This document shows positions 25,926 through 47,214 of a stretch of 64,000 nucleotides of DNA, one piece after another. Numbering within the stretch: the stretch's first letter is position 1; each line of letters starts with the position of its first letter. Location of the stretch: IMG/VR virus record IMGVR_UViG_3300020046_004224. One strand, 5' to 3'. Under the pieces are notes generated by a model. It was not told the DNA's origin. It did no database searches and saw only the letters and a list, made by a program, of their open reading frames with translations. Source of the stretch: a virus. Its lineage: Duplodnaviria > Caudoviricetes. The position numbers and the translations under genes are program-made.

Positions 25926-26432
25926 ATGAAATTTATCGAATTGTATAATCTGTTGACCGATTCATATTCAGATGAAACACCAAAAGTTTCTATATCGGAC
26001 CTAATTATACGAGGTCAGAAACTTGACGGAAAATCGATAAAGATAGAGTTTTCGAACGGGGCATACACTAATGGAGTTATACGGAAGTGGTTCAATCCCA
26101 AAACATTCGAAGAAAAAGATTACAGTATAGGAATTGTTTCATGGGGCGCAACCCCTATGTCATCTATTATGGATAGAGGTCTTATTGCTCAAAAGGACTA
26201 TAAGGGGCGTGGATTTGCTTCCAAATGTTTTAACGAATTACTCAAGATAGCCAAACAAAATAATATAGATATCTTTACTATTTTTGCTCCCTCGGACGAT
26301 AGCCAAGCTGTTATGAAGAATTATACAGATAAAAATGTATTAATCCCCATAGAAAGCAGTAAAGCTGCATATGGAGATTTTTACACCGAATTTCGTATAA
26401 ACTGGTCGGAGGCTAATAAAAGATTAAACTAA
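25926..26432 (+). CDS. GNAT-family acetyltransferase
   Basis: DYKGRGFASK acetyl-CoA binding motif. Confidence 0.65.
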   Translation: MKFIELYNLLTDSYSDETPKVSISDLIIRGQKLDGKSIKIEFSNGAYTNGVIRKWFNPKTFEEKDYSIGIVSWGATPMSSIMDRGLIAQKDYKGRGFASKCFNELLKIAKQNNIDIFTIFAPSDDSQAVMKNYTDKNVLIPIESSKAAYGDFYTEFRINWSEANKRLN

Positions 26433-27689
26433 CTTTGTAATTGGAAGTTCTTTATTTCCAACTGACATAGGTCTTCCTGGGGCGGAGCTTTCTAAAGGTG
26501 TCATCCACGGTTTAGCCGGATCAATCCCAAGGAAATGGCCCACTGTGGCATTAAACATACCAGGAGTTACATGATCCTCTTCGACCCGTTCTCCGTTAGG
26601 AGTAGTCTTACCAATGGCATATCCACCGAGATTTAAACCACCAAGAAGCATAGAAAATGCTTGCGCATGGTGATCTTTTCCCATATTAATATTTATTTTA
26701 GGAGTTCTTCCGAAATCTGTTGCAACAACAATCAATGTATCTTTTAAGAGTCCTTCGTTCTTCAAATCACCGAATAGTGAAGACAATGCTTTATCTAAAT
26801 CACCACCACGTTGTGTCATGTTGGTTTCGATGTCAGTATGCATGTCAAATCCGCCATAGGTTACTTCACAATAACGAACACCACTCTTTATCAATCTTTT
26901 TGCAAGCAACAGACCACTACCGATTTGGGTTCTTCCATAAGTGTCTCTTGCCTCTGGAGTTTCTTTATTCAAATCAAACACATTCAAATCGTCGCTTTTC
27001 AATAGTTTCAATGCTTCATCATATATTGAAGAATATGCACTCACATCAGATGTGTTAAAATTCTTTATGAAGTTATTATTCAGTGTATTTAGCACATTGT
27101 TTCGGCTATTAAATTCTGTTTCTGATCCTAATATTTTACTATATCTTAGACCCTCATTTGGATTAAGAATTGAAAGTGGATAGTACTTCTTATTAAAATA
27201 TCCACCACCAGGATTATCTGTATCAGGGGATATAGAAACATAATCAGGAATAGAGGGATGGAGTTTGCCCAACATACTGTATGATATTGATCCCATAGTT
27301 GGATGAATTATCAAACTACTCTTATTGTAAGAGGTTTTGATTGTATATTTCGACATTGCATGGGCACCAGATTTGGATACCATGCTTCTTACTGGAATAA
27401 ATTTGTCTCCGTGCTTTGCAAGGTTTGGATAATAACTTGAAATCAAGAAATCTCCAGTTGTTTTTATTGCCGTTGCATTTCCTCTTATTTCTACATCTTC
27501 TTTCGGGTCTAAAAAGTCAGTATGAGATATTCCTCCATCGAGATAGATGTATATGACATGCTTTGCTTTTCCAAAAGTTCCATTCCCGTTAGTTGATGCA
27601 AATAGATTATTAGGAAGCATACTAACTCCTAATGTTCCGAGTGCCAACTTTTCAATAAATGATCTACGTGATTCTGTATTGTTTTCCAT
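26424..27689 (-). CDS. DUF1501 family protein with Tat signal
   Basis: MENNTESRRSFI Tat leader; IYIYLDGGISH.D.LDPK, YGGFDMH, TDFGRTP, GKDHH. Confidence 0.88.
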   Translation of the reverse strand: MENNTESRRSFIEKLALGTLGVSMLPNNLFASTNGNGTFGKAKHVIYIYLDGGISHTDFLDPKEDVEIRGNATAIKTTGDFLISSYYPNLAKHGDKFIPVRSMVSKSGAHAMSKYTIKTSYNKSSLIIHPTMGSISYSMLGKLHPSIPDYVSISPDTDNPGGGYFNKKYYPLSILNPNEGLRYSKILGSETEFNSRNNVLNTLNNNFIKNFNTSDVSAYSSIYDEALKLLKSDDLNVFDLNKETPEARDTYGRTQIGSGLLLAKRLIKSGVRYCEVTYGGFDMHTDIETNMTQRGGDLDKALSSLFGDLKNEGLLKDTLIVVATDFGRTPKININMGKDHHAQAFSMLLGGLNLGGYAIGKTTPNGERVEEDHVTPGMFNATVGHFLGIDPAKPWMTPLESSAPGRPMSVGNKELPITKLV

Positions 27690-27690
27690 A

Positions 27691-27867
27691 TTAATATTTT
27701 TGCTTTTCGATATCTCGGAGTTCGGTTCTCCATATTTCCTTCTTACTTTCAAAATTCTTGTCACCTGTATCAGGCATCTCGACAAGTTTTTTCATATTAA
27801 AAATTCTTTCTGCCATCTTGTGTAGGCATTGCTCTTGATCACACTGTAAAATTAGTAAGTTGTCCAT
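27691..27867 (-). CDS. small hypothetical protein (58 aa)
   Basis: ORF MDNLLILQC... fills the gap between the DUF1549 and DUF1501 genes. Confidence 0.5.
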   Translation of the reverse strand: MDNLLILQCDQEQCLHKMAERIFNMKKLVEMPDTGDKNFESKKEIWRTELRDIEKQKY

Positions 27868-27868
27868 A

Positions 27869-29575
27869 TTATTTTTTAAATAGAAATTCGCGAGAATTGA
27901 CCAATGCCCATATAAGGTCTTTCTCTTCTGTTTTTGTTATTAAATCTTTTTCCTCAAGGGTCGGTAGCCGTGAATATACTGTTAAAAATATATCTTTCTT
28001 ATCAAGATTAGTTATCAAAGATTCCTTACTGTTAACTAGCTCCATAACTGGGGAATTCATCATAACCAATAACTGGGTTATGCTACCACCATTATCACTT
28101 GAGTCTATTAATATTCTGTCTGAGCTTCCATATTCTTTGAGGAATTGCCCAACGAAACTATTCTTGTTCATCACATATGCTGATCGAACTAATTCTATGT
28201 TTTTATATTTTAAAAAGTTGACGCTCATCTCCCTATCATATTTTCGAATATCTTCCATTTTATCAAGAAGAAGCTTACCATTGACATTCACCCAATCTAT
28301 TTCAATAAGATCAGCATATTTTTGAAAAACGACACGGGAATAATTTGTATCTGGCAGTATAAATGTTAATATACTATCCCATAATTGATATGCAGATAAT
28401 CTCTGAACCAAAACAGACTGGTGATTGTAGTTGACCATATTATCGTTGTATGCCACTCTATTATAAAAATCCGAAGAGATTATATGGCGAATTAACTCAC
28501 GCACACTGTAATTATGGGACTCTAAATAATCACCTAGATATTTTACTACTTGACCCTCTTTATGATCGTTTATAATAAAATTTATTTCAGGATTTATAAG
28601 TGGAGCACCTACTATATGTTTCCACATTCTATTAGCTATTGCATATGAGAAATTATCGTGTGTAGTTATCCATTCAGATATAGTGTCTCTTTTATCCTTA
28701 GTAGTGTTTTTAATCTTCCCGTCTAACGATACCGGAACAACTTCTTCAAAAGGCTTCCCATCTTTGTATTTGTAATCATGTGGAAGTTTTATCATCTTCC
28801 CGTCATTATTCTTCAAATTAAATAAATTTGATGCTAGTAGTTGTCTAACACCATTATCTATTCGGTCCTTCTTTGTGATTTCTTTGATTTCTTGATCAAC
28901 TCTTTTCAGAATATCACCGTACTCTTTTCGAGATTCTCTATTGTCAACAGTTGTAAAAAATGCTGCCATTTCAAAGAATTGTCTTTGTGTATAATCTTGG
29001 AAAGGATCGTCATGACACTGTGCGCAGGAAAGGTCTGTAGCAGTGAAAATTTGAAGAGTTGTAGCCAAATTATCGAGGGGTGTACCGTTATCACGTAGAA
29101 TATAACCAGTCGCCCCATTGTCAGAGTATCTACCAGTTGCAGTTAATAGATCATATACAAATTTATTATATGGTTTATCTGTTCGTATAGAATTTCTCAC
29201 ATAGTCCATATATGGATATGATTTTAAAAGACCGACATCATCAGATAATCTCTCTGGACGTATTCTTAGAATATCTGCCCAAAAATTATAAAGGTTATTA
29301 ACATAATCCTCAGAATTGAGAACTTTATCGATAACCTTTTCTTTCTTTGTAGGTGATTTATCTTGAGTGAATTCGTTTATTTCCTTTAGTGTTGGAATTC
29401 TTCCTGCAACATTTAAATATGTTCTACGTATCCATGTATTATCATCTATTTTAGTTGCAACTCCTTTGATGGAATTCTTAGAATAAAATGACTGTAATTC
29501 TTTGTCAAGATCGTTAAATCCGCTTCCTAATATAGGAATTACACATAACAGTAAGGATAACAAAATAGTTTTCAT
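27869..29575 (-). CDS. DUF1549/DUF1553 (PSD1-type) secreted protein
   Basis: signal peptide; IRRTYLNVAGRIPT, DKPYNKFV.DLLTA, CAQCHD, ANRMW, RLSAYQLWDS, WALVNSREF. Confidence 0.88.
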   Translation of the reverse strand: MKTILLSLLLCVIPILGSGFNDLDKELQSFYSKNSIKGVATKIDDNTWIRRTYLNVAGRIPTLKEINEFTQDKSPTKKEKVIDKVLNSEDYVNNLYNFWADILRIRPERLSDDVGLLKSYPYMDYVRNSIRTDKPYNKFVYDLLTATGRYSDNGATGYILRDNGTPLDNLATTLQIFTATDLSCAQCHDDPFQDYTQRQFFEMAAFFTTVDNRESRKEYGDILKRVDQEIKEITKKDRIDNGVRQLLASNLFNLKNNDGKMIKLPHDYKYKDGKPFEEVVPVSLDGKIKNTTKDKRDTISEWITTHDNFSYAIANRMWKHIVGAPLINPEINFIINDHKEGQVVKYLGDYLESHNYSVRELIRHIISSDFYNRVAYNDNMVNYNHQSVLVQRLSAYQLWDSILTFILPDTNYSRVVFQKYADLIEIDWVNVNGKLLLDKMEDIRKYDREMSVNFLKYKNIELVRSAYVMNKNSFVGQFLKEYGSSDRILIDSSDNGGSITQLLVMMNSPVMELVNSKESLITNLDKKDIFLTVYSRLPTLEEKDLITKTEEKDLIWALVNSREFLFKK

Positions 29576-46367: not shown

Positions 46368-46454
46368 TGGCAGAAACGGAGGGATTCAAACTCTAGACAC
46401 CTTGCGGTGTACTTGTTTTCCAAACAAGCTACTCAGTCAACTAGTTTACCTTCC
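46368..46454 (-). tRNA. tRNA-Ser(GGA), degenerate
   Basis: CTTGT-TTGGAAA-ACAAG, long V arm, G73-CCA. Confidence 0.7.
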
Positions 46455-46464
46455 TTTTAAAATT

Positions 46465-46552
46465 TGGTGGGACAACCTAGAGTTGAACTAGTTGCCGCCG
46501 CCGCACTTATTAATGGCAATAGATTTACAGTCTACCGTGCGGGGATTATCCC
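46465..46552 (-). tRNA. tRNA-Tyr(GTA), D-armless
   Basis: GTAGA-CTGTAAA-TCTAT; acceptor GGGATAA/TTGTCCC-ACCA; no D hairpin. Confidence 0.75.
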
Positions 46553-46584
46553 TTTTGATACAATATCATATACTTATAGTTCTG

Positions 46585-47142
46585 TCAACCATAATAGTAA
46601 TCTTTCCATCTATCTCCTAAAATATCATATAAATTTTTCAGATCAGATTTTAAAATCTTATTAGTGTGTACTAGTCTATGACAGTTTGGACATAATAAAG
46701 TTAAATTTGTGTGGTTGTGCGGGTCGGGTATTTTTCGACCGTTGATGTGGTGAATGTCGCACGTTGATTCATTCCATGAACAAATCGAACATCCTATGTT
46801 TAATCTTTTTAAGATTTTAGAGACTGTTCTCTTGGAGAATTCTAGTAAAGATGTCGCTGTATCGGCTTTAAATTTATTTTTCGTTCCTCCACCAACCCTT
46901 TTCGATCTTTCGTCTGTTGATAACAGATTGTTATATTTCTTGCGAACAACGTTTTTATAATCCCCTCTTTCGTGCTTTAGGCTAATAGCATCTGCTATCT
47001 TTTTATTGTGTTCCTCCGAATGAACAGGTCTTTTTCTATTACTCGCCTTCGCTGCGCACGATAAATTACAAAATCTTTTATATGATTTATCCCAATTTGT
47101 TTTTGGAATAAATTCTAGACCACATTCTTCACATATTTTCAT
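46585..47142 (-). CDS. HNH homing endonuclease
   Basis: CSIC...DIHH...N...LCPNCHRLVH. Confidence 0.85.
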   Translation of the reverse strand: MKICEECGLEFIPKTNWDKSYKRFCNLSCAAKASNRKRPVHSEEHNKKIADAISLKHERGDYKNVVRKKYNNLLSTDERSKRVGGGTKNKFKADTATSLLEFSKRTVSKILKRLNIGCSICSWNESTCDIHHINGRKIPDPHNHTNLTLLCPNCHRLVHTNKILKSDLKNLYDILGDRWKDYYYG

Positions 47143-47214
47143 TTTACGAATACAGACTCCCGCTACACCACCAATCGTAGCCGTTAACGCATATTTACTT
47201 TACTTATCTTAAAA

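What the first reader, a model, noticed from the sequence alone, without database searches (positions are those of the whole stretch)
46465..46552. D-armless tRNA-Tyr with a possible pseudoknot replacing the D arm
Only 10 nt (TCCCCGCACG) separate the acceptor and anticodon stems. CCGCAC in this segment is exactly complementary to GTGCGG inside the enlarged variable-arm loop (TGCC-ATTAATAA-GTGCGG-CGGC-GGCA). The following GG could stand in for G18/G19. This is a rewired tRNA core with an intact GUA anticodon and ACCA end. It may evade tRNA-Tyr-targeting nucleases.
Basis: seen in the sequence. Interest (0 to 1): 0.7.

Follow-up and report, generated by a model that had tools for sequence, protein, structure and literature searches.

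The report
Pseudoknotted phage tyrosine tRNA, rewired D arm
This phage gene encodes a tyrosine tRNA that has no D hairpin and rebuilds that helix by pairing with a strand inside its variable arm. The non-cloverleaf design is conserved in many phages and mobile tRNA arrays, the gene finders I ran miss it, and I found no paper describing it.

Summary
Window 46552..46465 (minus strand) has an acceptor stem, a GUA anticodon arm, a T arm and ACCA, but no D hairpin. CCGCAC is exactly complementary to GUGCGG in the variable region. In this one sequence that match is only marginally unlikely (shuffle p about 0.05).

It is one member of a large family. I collected 71 distinct relatives from phage contigs and bacterial tRNA arrays, with 43 different 5' strands in the wider set. 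On an unfitted MAFFT alignment, this helix (X) and a second helix (Y) that closes the variable arm covary as strongly as the acceptor and anticodon stems. X and Y cross, so the core is a pseudoknot.

The acceptor/T branch is 8+4 bp, not 7+5. A conserved YGG follows the X 3' strand. ARAGORN and Rfam's tRNA model miss the gene. In a Schlesneria 40-gene tRNA array it fills the only missing isotype, Tyr.

Best reading: a functional tyrosine tRNA with a strand-permuted D arm. Evasion of nucleases that cut the tRNA-Tyr variable arm (Septu, Retron-Eco7) is plausible but untested.

This scan has found the same design several times before on other DNA. I found no published description.

The parts
46465..46552 (-). 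Whole gene: 88-nt tRNA-Tyr(GUA) with encoded CCA, pseudoknotted and without a D hairpin
   Evidence: Sequence. The family covariance model R1 scores it 78.5 bits, though it is in the training set. ARAGORN does not call it and Rfam RF00005 gives no match at E<=1.
46545..46552 (-). Acceptor stem 5' strand GGGAUAAU (8 nt); pairs with 46469-46476
   Evidence: Columns 1-8 with 86-93 are 98% paired and 6 of 8 pairs change on both sides. Pair 8:86 is paired in 71 of 71 sequences. The close relative L008 has C:G where the window has U:G.
46537..46542 (-). Helix X 5' strand CCGCAC, sitting where the D-stem strand would be
   Evidence: Columns 11-16 with 51-56 are 92% paired and 5 of 6 pairs change on both sides. 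A member's own strands give 6/6 pairs in 84% of family members, against 13% when strands are paired across members.
46519..46535 (-). Anticodon arm GUAGA-CUGUAAA-UCUAU; anticodon GUA at 46526-46528
   Evidence: The 7-nt loop is invariant and the stem is 99.7% paired with all 5 pairs covarying.
46515..46518 (-). Helix Y 5' strand UGCC (base of the variable arm); pairs with 46493-46496
   Evidence: Columns 35-38 with 65-68 are 95% paired. Pair 37:66 shows CG 28, UA 21, GC 13, AU 7.
46507..46514 (-). A/U-rich linker AUUAAUAA between Y 5' strand and X 3' strand
   Evidence: Variable length (about 4-12 nt) and A/U-rich across the family.
46501..46506 (-). Helix X 3' strand GUGCGG, inside the variable-arm loop
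   Evidence: As for the 5' strand.
46497..46500 (-). CGGC loop with conserved GG, candidate stand-in for D-loop G18/G19
   Evidence: YGG follows the X 3' strand throughout the family; G at columns 58-59 is at least 90% conserved. Its role is inferred.
46493..46496 (-). Helix Y 3' strand GGCA
46477..46491 (-). T arm: 4-bp stem CUAG/CUAG with loop UUCAACU
   Evidence: Columns 71-74 with 82-85 are 98% paired. The nominal fifth pair (70:86) fails in 46 of 71 sequences.
46465..46476 (-). Acceptor 3' strand GUUGUCCC, discriminator A, encoded CCA
   Evidence: Sequence. A73 is present in 70 of 71 family members.
46560..46588 (-). Promoter-like site TTGACA-17-TATTGT (TG-extended) ending 8 nt before the tRNA 5' end; it overlaps the HNH stop codon
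   Evidence: The hexamers and spacing are conserved in L008. This is a consensus match only.
46585..47142 (-). HNH homing-endonuclease gene directly upstream (context, not part of the tRNA)
   Evidence: PHROGs HNH hits. Homologues lie next to tRNA-Tyr genes in 31 of 37 loci.
47151..47190 (-). Orphan 5' fragment of a canonical tRNA-Tyr (acceptor strand, D arm, anticodon stem strand, ...CUGUA), ending 8 nt before the HNH ATG
   Evidence: No matching 3' half lies nearby. Its acceptor strand does not pair with 46469-46476.

Best explanation
This is a functional tyrosine tRNA gene of a large phage. It belongs to a widespread family whose core is rewired.

Shown by covariation: an 8-bp acceptor stem and a 4-bp T stem; a normal anticodon arm with an invariant CUGUAAA loop; a 6-bp helix X between the strand after the acceptor stem and a strand inside the variable-arm loop; and a 4-bp helix Y that closes the variable arm. 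X and Y cross, which makes a pseudoknot.

Inferred: helix X replaces the D stem and stacks on the anticodon stem. Its 5' strand runs straight into the anticodon stem, so it takes the geometric place of the normal D-stem 3' strand. The 3' strand of X, followed by YGG, takes the place of D-stem 5' strand plus D loop, so the GG can reach the T loop and form the elbow. A 6-bp helix with a roughly 4-nt GG loop and an 8+4 acceptor branch is the same set of proportions as in tRNA-Sec and allo-tRNAs. The result would be an L-shaped molecule that host TyrRS can charge (G1:C72, A73, GUA, a protruding extra arm) and that the ribosome can use.

Speculative: because its variable arm is locked into the core, it may escape defence nucleases that cut the variable arm of ordinary tRNA-Tyr.
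For: - The gene is intact and sits in a minus-strand tRNA array with a promoter-like site of its own.
- A 96%-related phage fragment (L008) keeps the gene with 4 changes. One converts an acceptor U:G to C:G and the others lie in unpaired segments.
- A pattern for the design matched 116 stretches in IMG/VR and 56 in GTDB genomes (about 40 of them genuine on inspection), far more than the handful I estimated from its information content.
- The wider set holds 89 distinct sequences (2-3 are false) with 43 different X 5' strands. A member's own strands give 6/6 pairs in 84%, against 13% across members.
- On a MAFFT alignment, all five helices are 92-99.7% paired with double-sided changes. None of 500 shuffles reaches the observed values, and slid controls give 43-56% pairing.
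- RNAalifold independently predicts helix X and the 8+4 branch.
- In Schlesneria sp. T3-172, a 40-gene tRNA array has ARAGORN-called tRNAs for 19 amino acids, all but Tyr. The rewired gene sits in the gap between tRNA-Glu and tRNA-Leu.
- A structure-only scan of 1.83 Mb with any anticodon allowed found 53 distinct hits, all GUA.
- G1:C72 occurs in 69 of 71 members and A73 in 70 of 71; CCA is usually encoded in the phage copies.
Against: - There are no expression, charging or structure data.
- The X pairing in this one sequence is only marginally unlikely on its own (p about 0.05), and the single-sequence fold z-score is -1.27.
- Most family members were retrieved with a pattern that fixed GGG, TT at positions 9-10, C11, the anticodon loop and T-K-G after the anticodon stem. 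Conservation at those positions is partly circular. The paired columns other than C11 were left free.
- The window copy has CC where most members have UU at positions 9-10.
- The neighbouring tRNA-Ser(GGA) in this window looks degraded, so some decay occurs in this array.
- Schlesneria also has a canonical tRNA-Tyr elsewhere on its chromosome, so the rewired gene is not essential there.
- The 3D arrangement and the GG-to-T-loop contact are inferred by analogy.
Confidence: 0.8

Rival explanations
1. It is a tRNA-shaped decoy or sponge rather than a decoding tRNA. It would be made to bind or saturate a tRNA-Tyr-directed defence nuclease or another tRNA-binding factor, without being used on the ribosome.
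For: It occurs in phage and mobile tRNA arrays, which the literature treats as anti-defence cargo (PMC12803027 abstract; PMC11555353). Schlesneria keeps a canonical tRNA-Tyr as well. This phage carries other tRNA-like RNAs, according to unchecked scan notes.
Against: The anticodon loop is invariant, the anticodon stem covaries, A73 and G1:C72 are kept, and the 12-bp acceptor branch and encoded CCA are preserved. These are all features needed for charging, EF-Tu binding and decoding. The gene also fills the single missing isotype in an otherwise complete array.
Confidence: 0.1
2. It is a decaying pseudogene: a class II tRNA-Tyr that lost part of its D arm by deletion when the neighbouring HNH endonuclease gene inserted. 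On this view the 6-nt complementarity is chance.
For: The window-only match has p about 0.05. An orphan 5' tRNA-Tyr fragment and an HNH gene lie directly upstream. The adjacent tRNA-Ser(GGA) looks degraded. Gene finders reject the gene.
Against: The same architecture, with compensatory changes in both extra helices, recurs in 71 aligned homologues from unrelated phage contigs and bacterial arrays. Only 7 of 108 pattern-derived loci have the HNH nearby. All stems of the window copy are intact.
Confidence: 0.03
3. Only helix X forms, nested, giving a three-way junction with an extended anticodon arm. Helix Y is either an alternative conformer or does not coexist with X, so there is no true pseudoknot.
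For: The minimum-energy and RNAalifold folds contain X but cannot represent Y. Y is only 4 bp, and two of its pairs hardly vary.
Against: Pair 37:66 of Y shows four Watson-Crick types (CG 28, UA 21, GC 13, AU 7) and Y is 95% paired. The linkers of about 4-12 nt and about 4-7 nt seem long enough for both helices to form together.
Confidence: 0.07

Closest known systems
Canonical bacterial and phage class II tRNA-Tyr(GUA), e.g. the annotated tRNA-Tyr of Klebsiella phage vB_KpP_FBKp27, and the related phage contig L001:7765-7857
   Same: GUA anticodon in a CUGUAAA loop, G1:C72, A73, overall length of about 85 nt, an extra arm between the anticodon and T arms, and a position inside phage tRNA arrays. 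BLAST aligns the window gene from its anticodon arm onward to the Klebsiella phage gene at 71% identity.
   Different: Canonical genes have 18-25 nt with a D hairpin between the acceptor and anticodon stems, a 12-20 nt variable arm and a 7+5 acceptor branch. Here there are 9 nt, no D hairpin, a 26-nt variable region whose loop supplies the missing strand, and an 8+4 branch.
tRNA-Sec and the (8/4) allo-tRNAs, tRNA-Ser and tRNA-His of bacteria and phages (Mukai et al. 2017, PMC5389517)
   Same: A 12-bp acceptor branch split 8+4; a long (6-bp) D-type helix with a roughly 4-nt loop; a long extra arm; and occurrence in phage tRNA clusters.
   Different: In those tRNAs the D helix is an ordinary hairpin and the fold is a cloverleaf. 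Here its two strands are separated by the whole anticodon arm, and the helix forms as a pseudoknot with the variable-arm loop. No tRNA-Tyr of this kind is described in that paper.
D-armless mitochondrial tRNAs (metazoan mt-tRNA-Ser(AGY), nematode mt-tRNA-Ser; PMC4013460, PMC7609411)
   Same: No D hairpin, with a short connector between the acceptor and anticodon stems.
   Different: The mitochondrial forms simply lose the arm and become shorter and more flexible (PMC7609411). This family keeps full length and rebuilds the helix from a relocated strand. It is found in phages and bacteria.
Phage tRNA-Tyr used against tRNA-cutting defences (T5, SP15 and T6 tRNA-Tyr versus Retron-Eco7 PtuAB and Septu; PMC11555353, PMC13096335)
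   Same: A phage-encoded tRNA-Tyr. The defence enzymes cut the variable arm of tRNA-Tyr, and T5 resistance is attributed to a distinctive variable loop. A homing endonuclease gene lies beside the tRNA-Tyr gene: SegB in T6, an HNH here.
   Different: Those tRNAs are cloverleaves. No test of this family against any nuclease exists. The HNH here is a different endonuclease family from SegB (GIY-YIG).

Membership tests
tRNA, canonical cloverleaf (Rfam RF00005) | Acceptor stem closed by 5' and 3' ends, with discriminator and CCA | tested here: met
   8 bp, A73, encoded CCA. The stem covaries.
tRNA, canonical cloverleaf (Rfam RF00005) | Anticodon arm: 5-bp stem, 7-nt loop with U33 and purine 37 | tested here: met
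   GUAGA-CUGUAAA-UCUAU. The stem is 99.7% paired across the family.
tRNA, canonical cloverleaf (Rfam RF00005) | T arm with a UUCRA-type loop | tested here: met
   CUAG-UUCAACU-CUAG. The stem is 4 bp, not 5.
tRNA, canonical cloverleaf (Rfam RF00005) | D arm as a local hairpin between positions 10 and 25 | tested here: not met
   Only 9 nt lie between the acceptor and anticodon stems, and no local stem is possible.
tRNA, canonical cloverleaf (Rfam RF00005) | Score at or above the model's gathering threshold (29 bits), or a call by a tRNA finder | tested here: not met
   No RF00005 match at E<=1 and no ARAGORN call. The same holds for L008 with ARAGORN and for the Schlesneria copy. The crAss001 copy is unannotated in GenBank. 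tRNAscan-SE was not available.
Bacterial-type tRNA-Tyr identity | Anticodon GUA, discriminator A73, G1:C72 (established identity elements) | tested here: met
   All are present in the window. Across the family GUA is invariant, A73 occurs in 70 of 71 and G1:C72 in 69 of 71.
Bacterial-type tRNA-Tyr identity | Long variable arm presented to TyrRS | tested here: inconclusive
   A 4-bp helix Y closes an 18-nt loop that is tied back into the core. Whether TyrRS accepts this is unknown.
Bacterial-type tRNA-Tyr identity | Charged with tyrosine | not testable with these tools
   Needs an aminoacylation assay.
Pseudoknotted (rewired D arm) tRNA-Tyr family defined in this scan | 6-bp helix X between nt 11-16 and a strand in the variable-arm loop | tested here: met
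   CCGCAC:GUGCGG, 6 of 6 Watson-Crick pairs. Family covariation.
Pseudoknotted (rewired D arm) tRNA-Tyr family defined in this scan | 4-bp helix Y closing the variable arm, with YGG after the X 3' strand | tested here: met
   UGCC:GGCA and CGGC. Family data.
Pseudoknotted (rewired D arm) tRNA-Tyr family defined in this scan | 8+4 acceptor/T branch | tested here: met
   U8:G pair in the window. Column pair 8:86 is paired in 71 of 71 sequences.
(8/4) allo-tRNA / tRNA-Sec-like tRNAs | D stem-loop hairpin with a long stem and tetraloop | tested here: not met
   The helix has the same proportions, but its strands are 30 nt apart and it is not a hairpin.
tRNA gene interrupted by a group I intron carrying the HNH ORF | Group I intron core, with matching 5' and 3' exons flanking the ORF | tested here: not met
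   No intron family was found in the window region at E<=1 or in 12 homologous loci. The upstream 5' fragment does not pair with this gene's 3' strand.

The most novel reading that the evidence does not exclude
Nature has produced a tRNA whose core is a pseudoknot, with the D-stem strands permuted around the anticodon arm. It is nevertheless charged by ordinary TyrRS and used by the ribosome. It spreads in phages and mobile tRNA arrays because its buried variable arm makes it resistant to defence nucleases (Septu/PtuAB type) that disable host tRNA-Tyr.
Probability: 0.3. Interest if true: 0.9.

Novelty: new variant of a known kind. Interest (0 to 1): 0.8.

Why it matters
The cloverleaf is treated as near-universal outside organelles. 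A conserved, full-length tRNA that rebuilds its D helix as a pseudoknot would show that the L-shape can be reached by a different strand topology.

It would explain why tyrosine tRNAs appear to be missing from some phage and array tRNA sets, because the gene finders tried here skip it. It also points to a blind spot in tRNA annotation.

It offers a natural scaffold for orthogonal tRNA engineering. It gives a concrete candidate for how phages protect tyrosine decoding from variable-arm-cutting defences. A cultured system exists for testing: crAss001 carries an unannotated member.

Tried and rejected
- **Canonical cloverleaf parses.** I tried alternative D stems and alternative anticodon loops in the variable region. 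None pairs.
- **Group I or other intron carrying the HNH ORF.** Rejected. Rfam finds none. The non-coding remainder around the ORF is under 50 nt on each side. The upstream 5' fragment does not match this gene's 3' strand.
- **Dependence on the HNH cassette.** Rejected. Only 7 of 108 family loci have the HNH nearby.
- **Exact 22-mer search of IMG/VR.** No hits.
- **Neighbouring 204-aa ATPase-like protein.** No relatives in IMG/VR.
- **The 1367-aa ORF against GenBank phages.** No match.
- **blastn of family member L102 against GenBank phages.** No match.
- **Is the design the sole cellular tRNA-Tyr of Planctomycetota?** No. Schlesneria has a canonical tRNA-Tyr elsewhere, and the rewired gene lies in a tRNA array.
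- **TyrRS gene in the window.** None found among the ORFs scanned. Only 64 kb of the phage is visible.
- **Other isotypes with this architecture.** None in 1.83 Mb and none elsewhere in the window.
- **Literature.** Five full-text searches and two papers on non-canonical tRNAs (a review and a research article) gave no description of the design.

Full report
**What is at the coordinates**

The window is part of a large phage; no whole genome is held for it. It carries ribonucleotide reductase, a clamp-loader protein, a Ro60-like protein and HNH endonucleases. It has no close relative among GenBank phages.

A minus-strand array of at least 19 tRNA genes lies between 44 and 59 kb. The reported element runs from 46552 to 46465 on the minus strand. 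It reads GGGAUAAU-CC-CCGCAC-G-GUAGA-CUGUAAA-UCUAU-UGCC-AUUAAUAA-GUGCGG-CGGC-GGCA-A-CUAG-UUCAACU-CUAG-GUUGUCCC-A-CCA.

- an acceptor stem;
- a short linker instead of a D arm;
- a normal anticodon arm with GUA;
- a 26-nt variable region in which GUGCGG is the exact complement of the linker's CCGCAC;
- a T arm and an ACCA end.

ARAGORN does not call the gene. Rfam's tRNA model gives no match even at E<=1. A TTGACA-17-TATTGT promoter-like site ends 8 nt upstream.

**Is the pairing more than chance?**

Judged on this sequence alone, barely. A 6-nt Watson-Crick match between the two segments appears in about 5% of shuffles. The single-sequence fold forms the helix but has a z-score of only -1.27. 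The question had to be settled with homologues.

**Finding homologues**

- A protein 4 kb away has relatives in metagenomes. One related phage contig, L001, carries an ordinary cloverleaf tRNA-Tyr at the syntenic place between tRNA-Ile and tRNA-Arg.
- The HNH gene directly upstream of the element has a 96%-identical relative on a short contig, L008. That contig keeps the same tRNA with four changes. One turns an acceptor U:G into C:G, and the others fall in unpaired segments.
- More distant HNH homologues in IMG/VR also lie beside tRNA-Tyr genes. A structure scan of those loci found five independent tRNA-Tyr genes with the same odd layout: a 10-nt D region and a 26-30-nt variable region. Their linker strands differ (CCUGCC, CCUGCU, CUUCAC, CCUCAU), and each is matched by a complementary strand in its own variable region.
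- A degenerate pattern for the layout then matched 116 stretches in IMG/VR and 56 in GTDB genomes. About 40 of the genome matches are genuine.

**Covariation**

The collected set holds 89 distinct sequences, of which 2-3 are false, with 43 different linker strands. A member's own two strands form 6 of 6 pairs in 84% of cases. When one member's strand is tested against other members' variable regions, the figure is 13%.

I aligned 71 distinct sequences with MAFFT, which does not fit the alignment to any structure. I then counted pairs for a structure with five helices. Overall, 96.7% of cells are paired, against 72% in shuffles. None of 500 shuffles reaches any observed measure. Sliding the 3' partners by 1-3 columns gives 44-56% pairing.

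| Helix | Paired cells | Covariation |
|---|---|---|
| X (linker strand with variable-loop strand) | 92% | 5 of 6 pairs change on both sides; pair 13:54 shows UA 23, CG 17, UG 10, AU 9, GC 8 |
| Y (first 4 nt after the anticodon stem with the 4 nt before the T arm) | 95% | pair 37:66 shows CG 28, UA 21, GC 13, AU 7 |
| Acceptor stem | 98% | 6 of 8 pairs change on both sides |
| Anticodon stem | 99.7% | all 5 pairs covary |
| T stem | 98% | 3 of 4 pairs change on both sides |

RNAalifold independently recovers X. It also revealed that position 8 pairs with the nucleotide after a 4-bp T stem, in 71 of 71 sequences with 25 double-sided changes. The nominal fifth T-stem pair fails in 46 of 71 sequences. 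The acceptor branch is therefore 8+4 bp, not 7+5.

One caveat applies. The retrieval pattern fixed GGG, U9-U10, C11, the anticodon loop and three bases after the anticodon stem. Conservation at those positions is partly circular. The paired columns other than C11 were left free.

**Evidence that it is a working tRNA-Tyr**

- The anticodon loop is invariant. G1:C72 and A73, which are bacterial tyrosine identity elements by established knowledge, are kept in 69 and 70 of 71 sequences. CCA is usually encoded in the phage copies.
- The complete genome of Schlesneria sp. T3-172 has a 40-gene tRNA array. ARAGORN finds tRNAs for 19 amino acids there, all but tyrosine. The rewired gene sits in the 100-nt gap between tRNA-Glu and tRNA-Leu. 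Rfam's tRNA model also skips it there. The same genome has a canonical tRNA-Tyr elsewhere, so the rewired gene belongs to the array's set rather than the cell's core set.
- A scan of 1.83 Mb of held loci for the architecture with any anticodon returned 53 distinct hits, all GUA.
- A covariance model of the family finds only this one member in the window.
- The same model finds an unannotated member in the cultured phage crAss001, between its annotated tRNA-Lys and tRNA-Phe. There X is ACAUCA:UGAUGU and Y is CUCC:GGAG.

**How it probably works (inference)**

The X 5' strand is followed after one nucleotide by the anticodon stem. If X stacks on that stem, the 5' strand occupies the place of the normal D-stem 3' strand plus nucleotide 26. 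The X 3' strand is followed by a conserved YGG loop. It would then occupy the place of the D-stem 5' strand plus the D loop, so the GG could reach the T loop as G18/G19 do.

Helix Y bridges the end of the anticodon stem and the start of the T stem, where a class II variable arm normally emerges. The A/U-rich linker returns the chain to the core.

The proportions match those described for tRNA-Sec and allo-tRNAs: a 6-bp helix, a roughly 4-nt GG loop and an 8+4 branch (PMC5389517; PMC7609411). The difference is that the helix here is not a hairpin. This picture needs probing or a solved structure.

**Why a phage would carry it**

Published work supports the premise:
- Septu and Retron-Eco7 PtuAB cut the stem of the tRNA-Tyr variable arm.
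- T5 tRNA-Tyr resists cleavage through its distinctive variable loop.
- A homing endonuclease beside the T6 tRNA-Tyr gene helps T6 escape by amplifying that gene (PMC13096335, PMC11555353).

A variable arm locked into a pseudoknot is a plausible way to escape such enzymes. Nothing here tests it. The anticodon loop is standard, so it gives no protection against anticodon-loop nucleases.

**Context: the HNH gene**

The HNH ORF (47142..46585) is preceded by an orphan 5' fragment of a canonical tRNA-Tyr that ends at CUGUA, 8 nt before the ATG. The layout is recurrent among 37 distinct homologue loci:
- 17 have a complete tRNA-Tyr starting at or just after the stop codon;
- 14 have a complete tRNA-Tyr just upstream;
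- 23 have a YUGUA motif within 75 nt upstream of the start codon, consistent with a 5' fragment ending in the anticodon loop.

No group I intron is detectable. This looks like a homing endonuclease family that targets tRNA-Tyr genes and leaves or brings an intact copy. The rewired tRNA does not depend on it, because only 7 of 108 family loci have the HNH nearby.

**Novelty**

Five full-text searches and two papers on non-canonical tRNAs, a review and a research article, gave no description of a tRNA-Tyr of this kind. The earlier notes of this scan show that the same design has been found and followed up several times on other genomes, with the same conclusion. I reproduced their main claims independently: the family, the covariation, the failure of gene finders, the mobile arrays and the crAss001 member.

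- the isotype-slot argument in a complete genome;
- covariation support for the 8+4 branch;
- the restriction of the architecture to GUA;
- the separation of the tRNA family from the HNH family.

**Verdict**

It is a new structural variant of a known kind of molecule. It is of high interest as a class and is ready for experiment.

Noticed in passing
window 46585-47190 (-); L009, L010-L015, L017, L021, L023, L027, L030 and others: The HNH endonuclease family (conserved C-terminus W.DYYYG) lies beside tRNA-Tyr genes in 31 of 37 distinct homologue loci. A 5' tRNA-Tyr fragment ending in the anticodon loop often sits just upstream of the ATG, and a complete tRNA-Tyr often starts at the stop codon. 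No intron is detectable. It looks like a homing endonuclease that targets tRNA-Tyr genes and duplicates or replaces the target.
   Followed up: partly
window 46368-46454 (-): The tRNA-Ser(GGA)-like gene next to the Tyr gene is not called by ARAGORN or Rfam. Its T stem and acceptor stem have mismatches that are absent from the copy in the close relative (L008:1105-1194, which ARAGORN calls). It is probably a decaying copy.
   Followed up: partly
L009:3526-3612; L010:3526-3610 (and L011-L015): These loci hold another uncalled tRNA-Tyr type directly after the HNH stop codon. It has a 5-bp D hairpin with a 5-nt loop (GCCAG-CGGCU-CUGGC), an unusual T loop (AUCGACA) and no complete CCA. L009 and L010 differ by compensatory changes in the acceptor, D and anticodon stems.
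   Followed up: no
L043:2829-2900 and L029 (about 1960-2045): These tRNA-Tyr-like genes have a 14-nt D region (AUCCAGGGAGAAGC) with no evident D stem. This may be a third non-canonical layout.
   Followed up: no
window 26424-27785 (-) and 27869-29575 (-): The phage ORFs carry DUF1501 and PSCyt2+PSD1 domains, families that I recall as typical of Planctomycetota. This hints at the host and fits the many rewired tRNA-Tyr genes found in Planctomycetota tRNA arrays.
   Followed up: no
L227 (Schlesneria sp. T3-172, NZ_CP172346.1, about 826-831 kb): A chromosomal array of about 40 tRNA genes on one strand covers all 20 amino acids once the rewired tRNA-Tyr is counted. About 40 further genome hits, mostly Planctomycetota MAGs, carry the same rewired gene; their context was not examined.
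   Followed up: partly
MH675552.1 4141-4235 (+) (Bacteroides phage crAss001): An unannotated member of the rewired tRNA-Tyr family lies between the annotated tRNA-Lys and tRNA-Phe. It has an 8-nt D region (X ACAUCA:UGAUGU, Y CUCC:GGAG). The family model scores it 30 bits, E 2.7e-6.
   Followed up: yes
L010:3640-4175: A non-coding stretch of about 530 nt after the HNH/tRNA-Tyr unit has many hairpin-like repeats. It also contains a T arm plus acceptor 3' strand (CUAACAC) that matches the orphan 5' fragment upstream of the HNH. Its nature was not examined.
   Followed up: no
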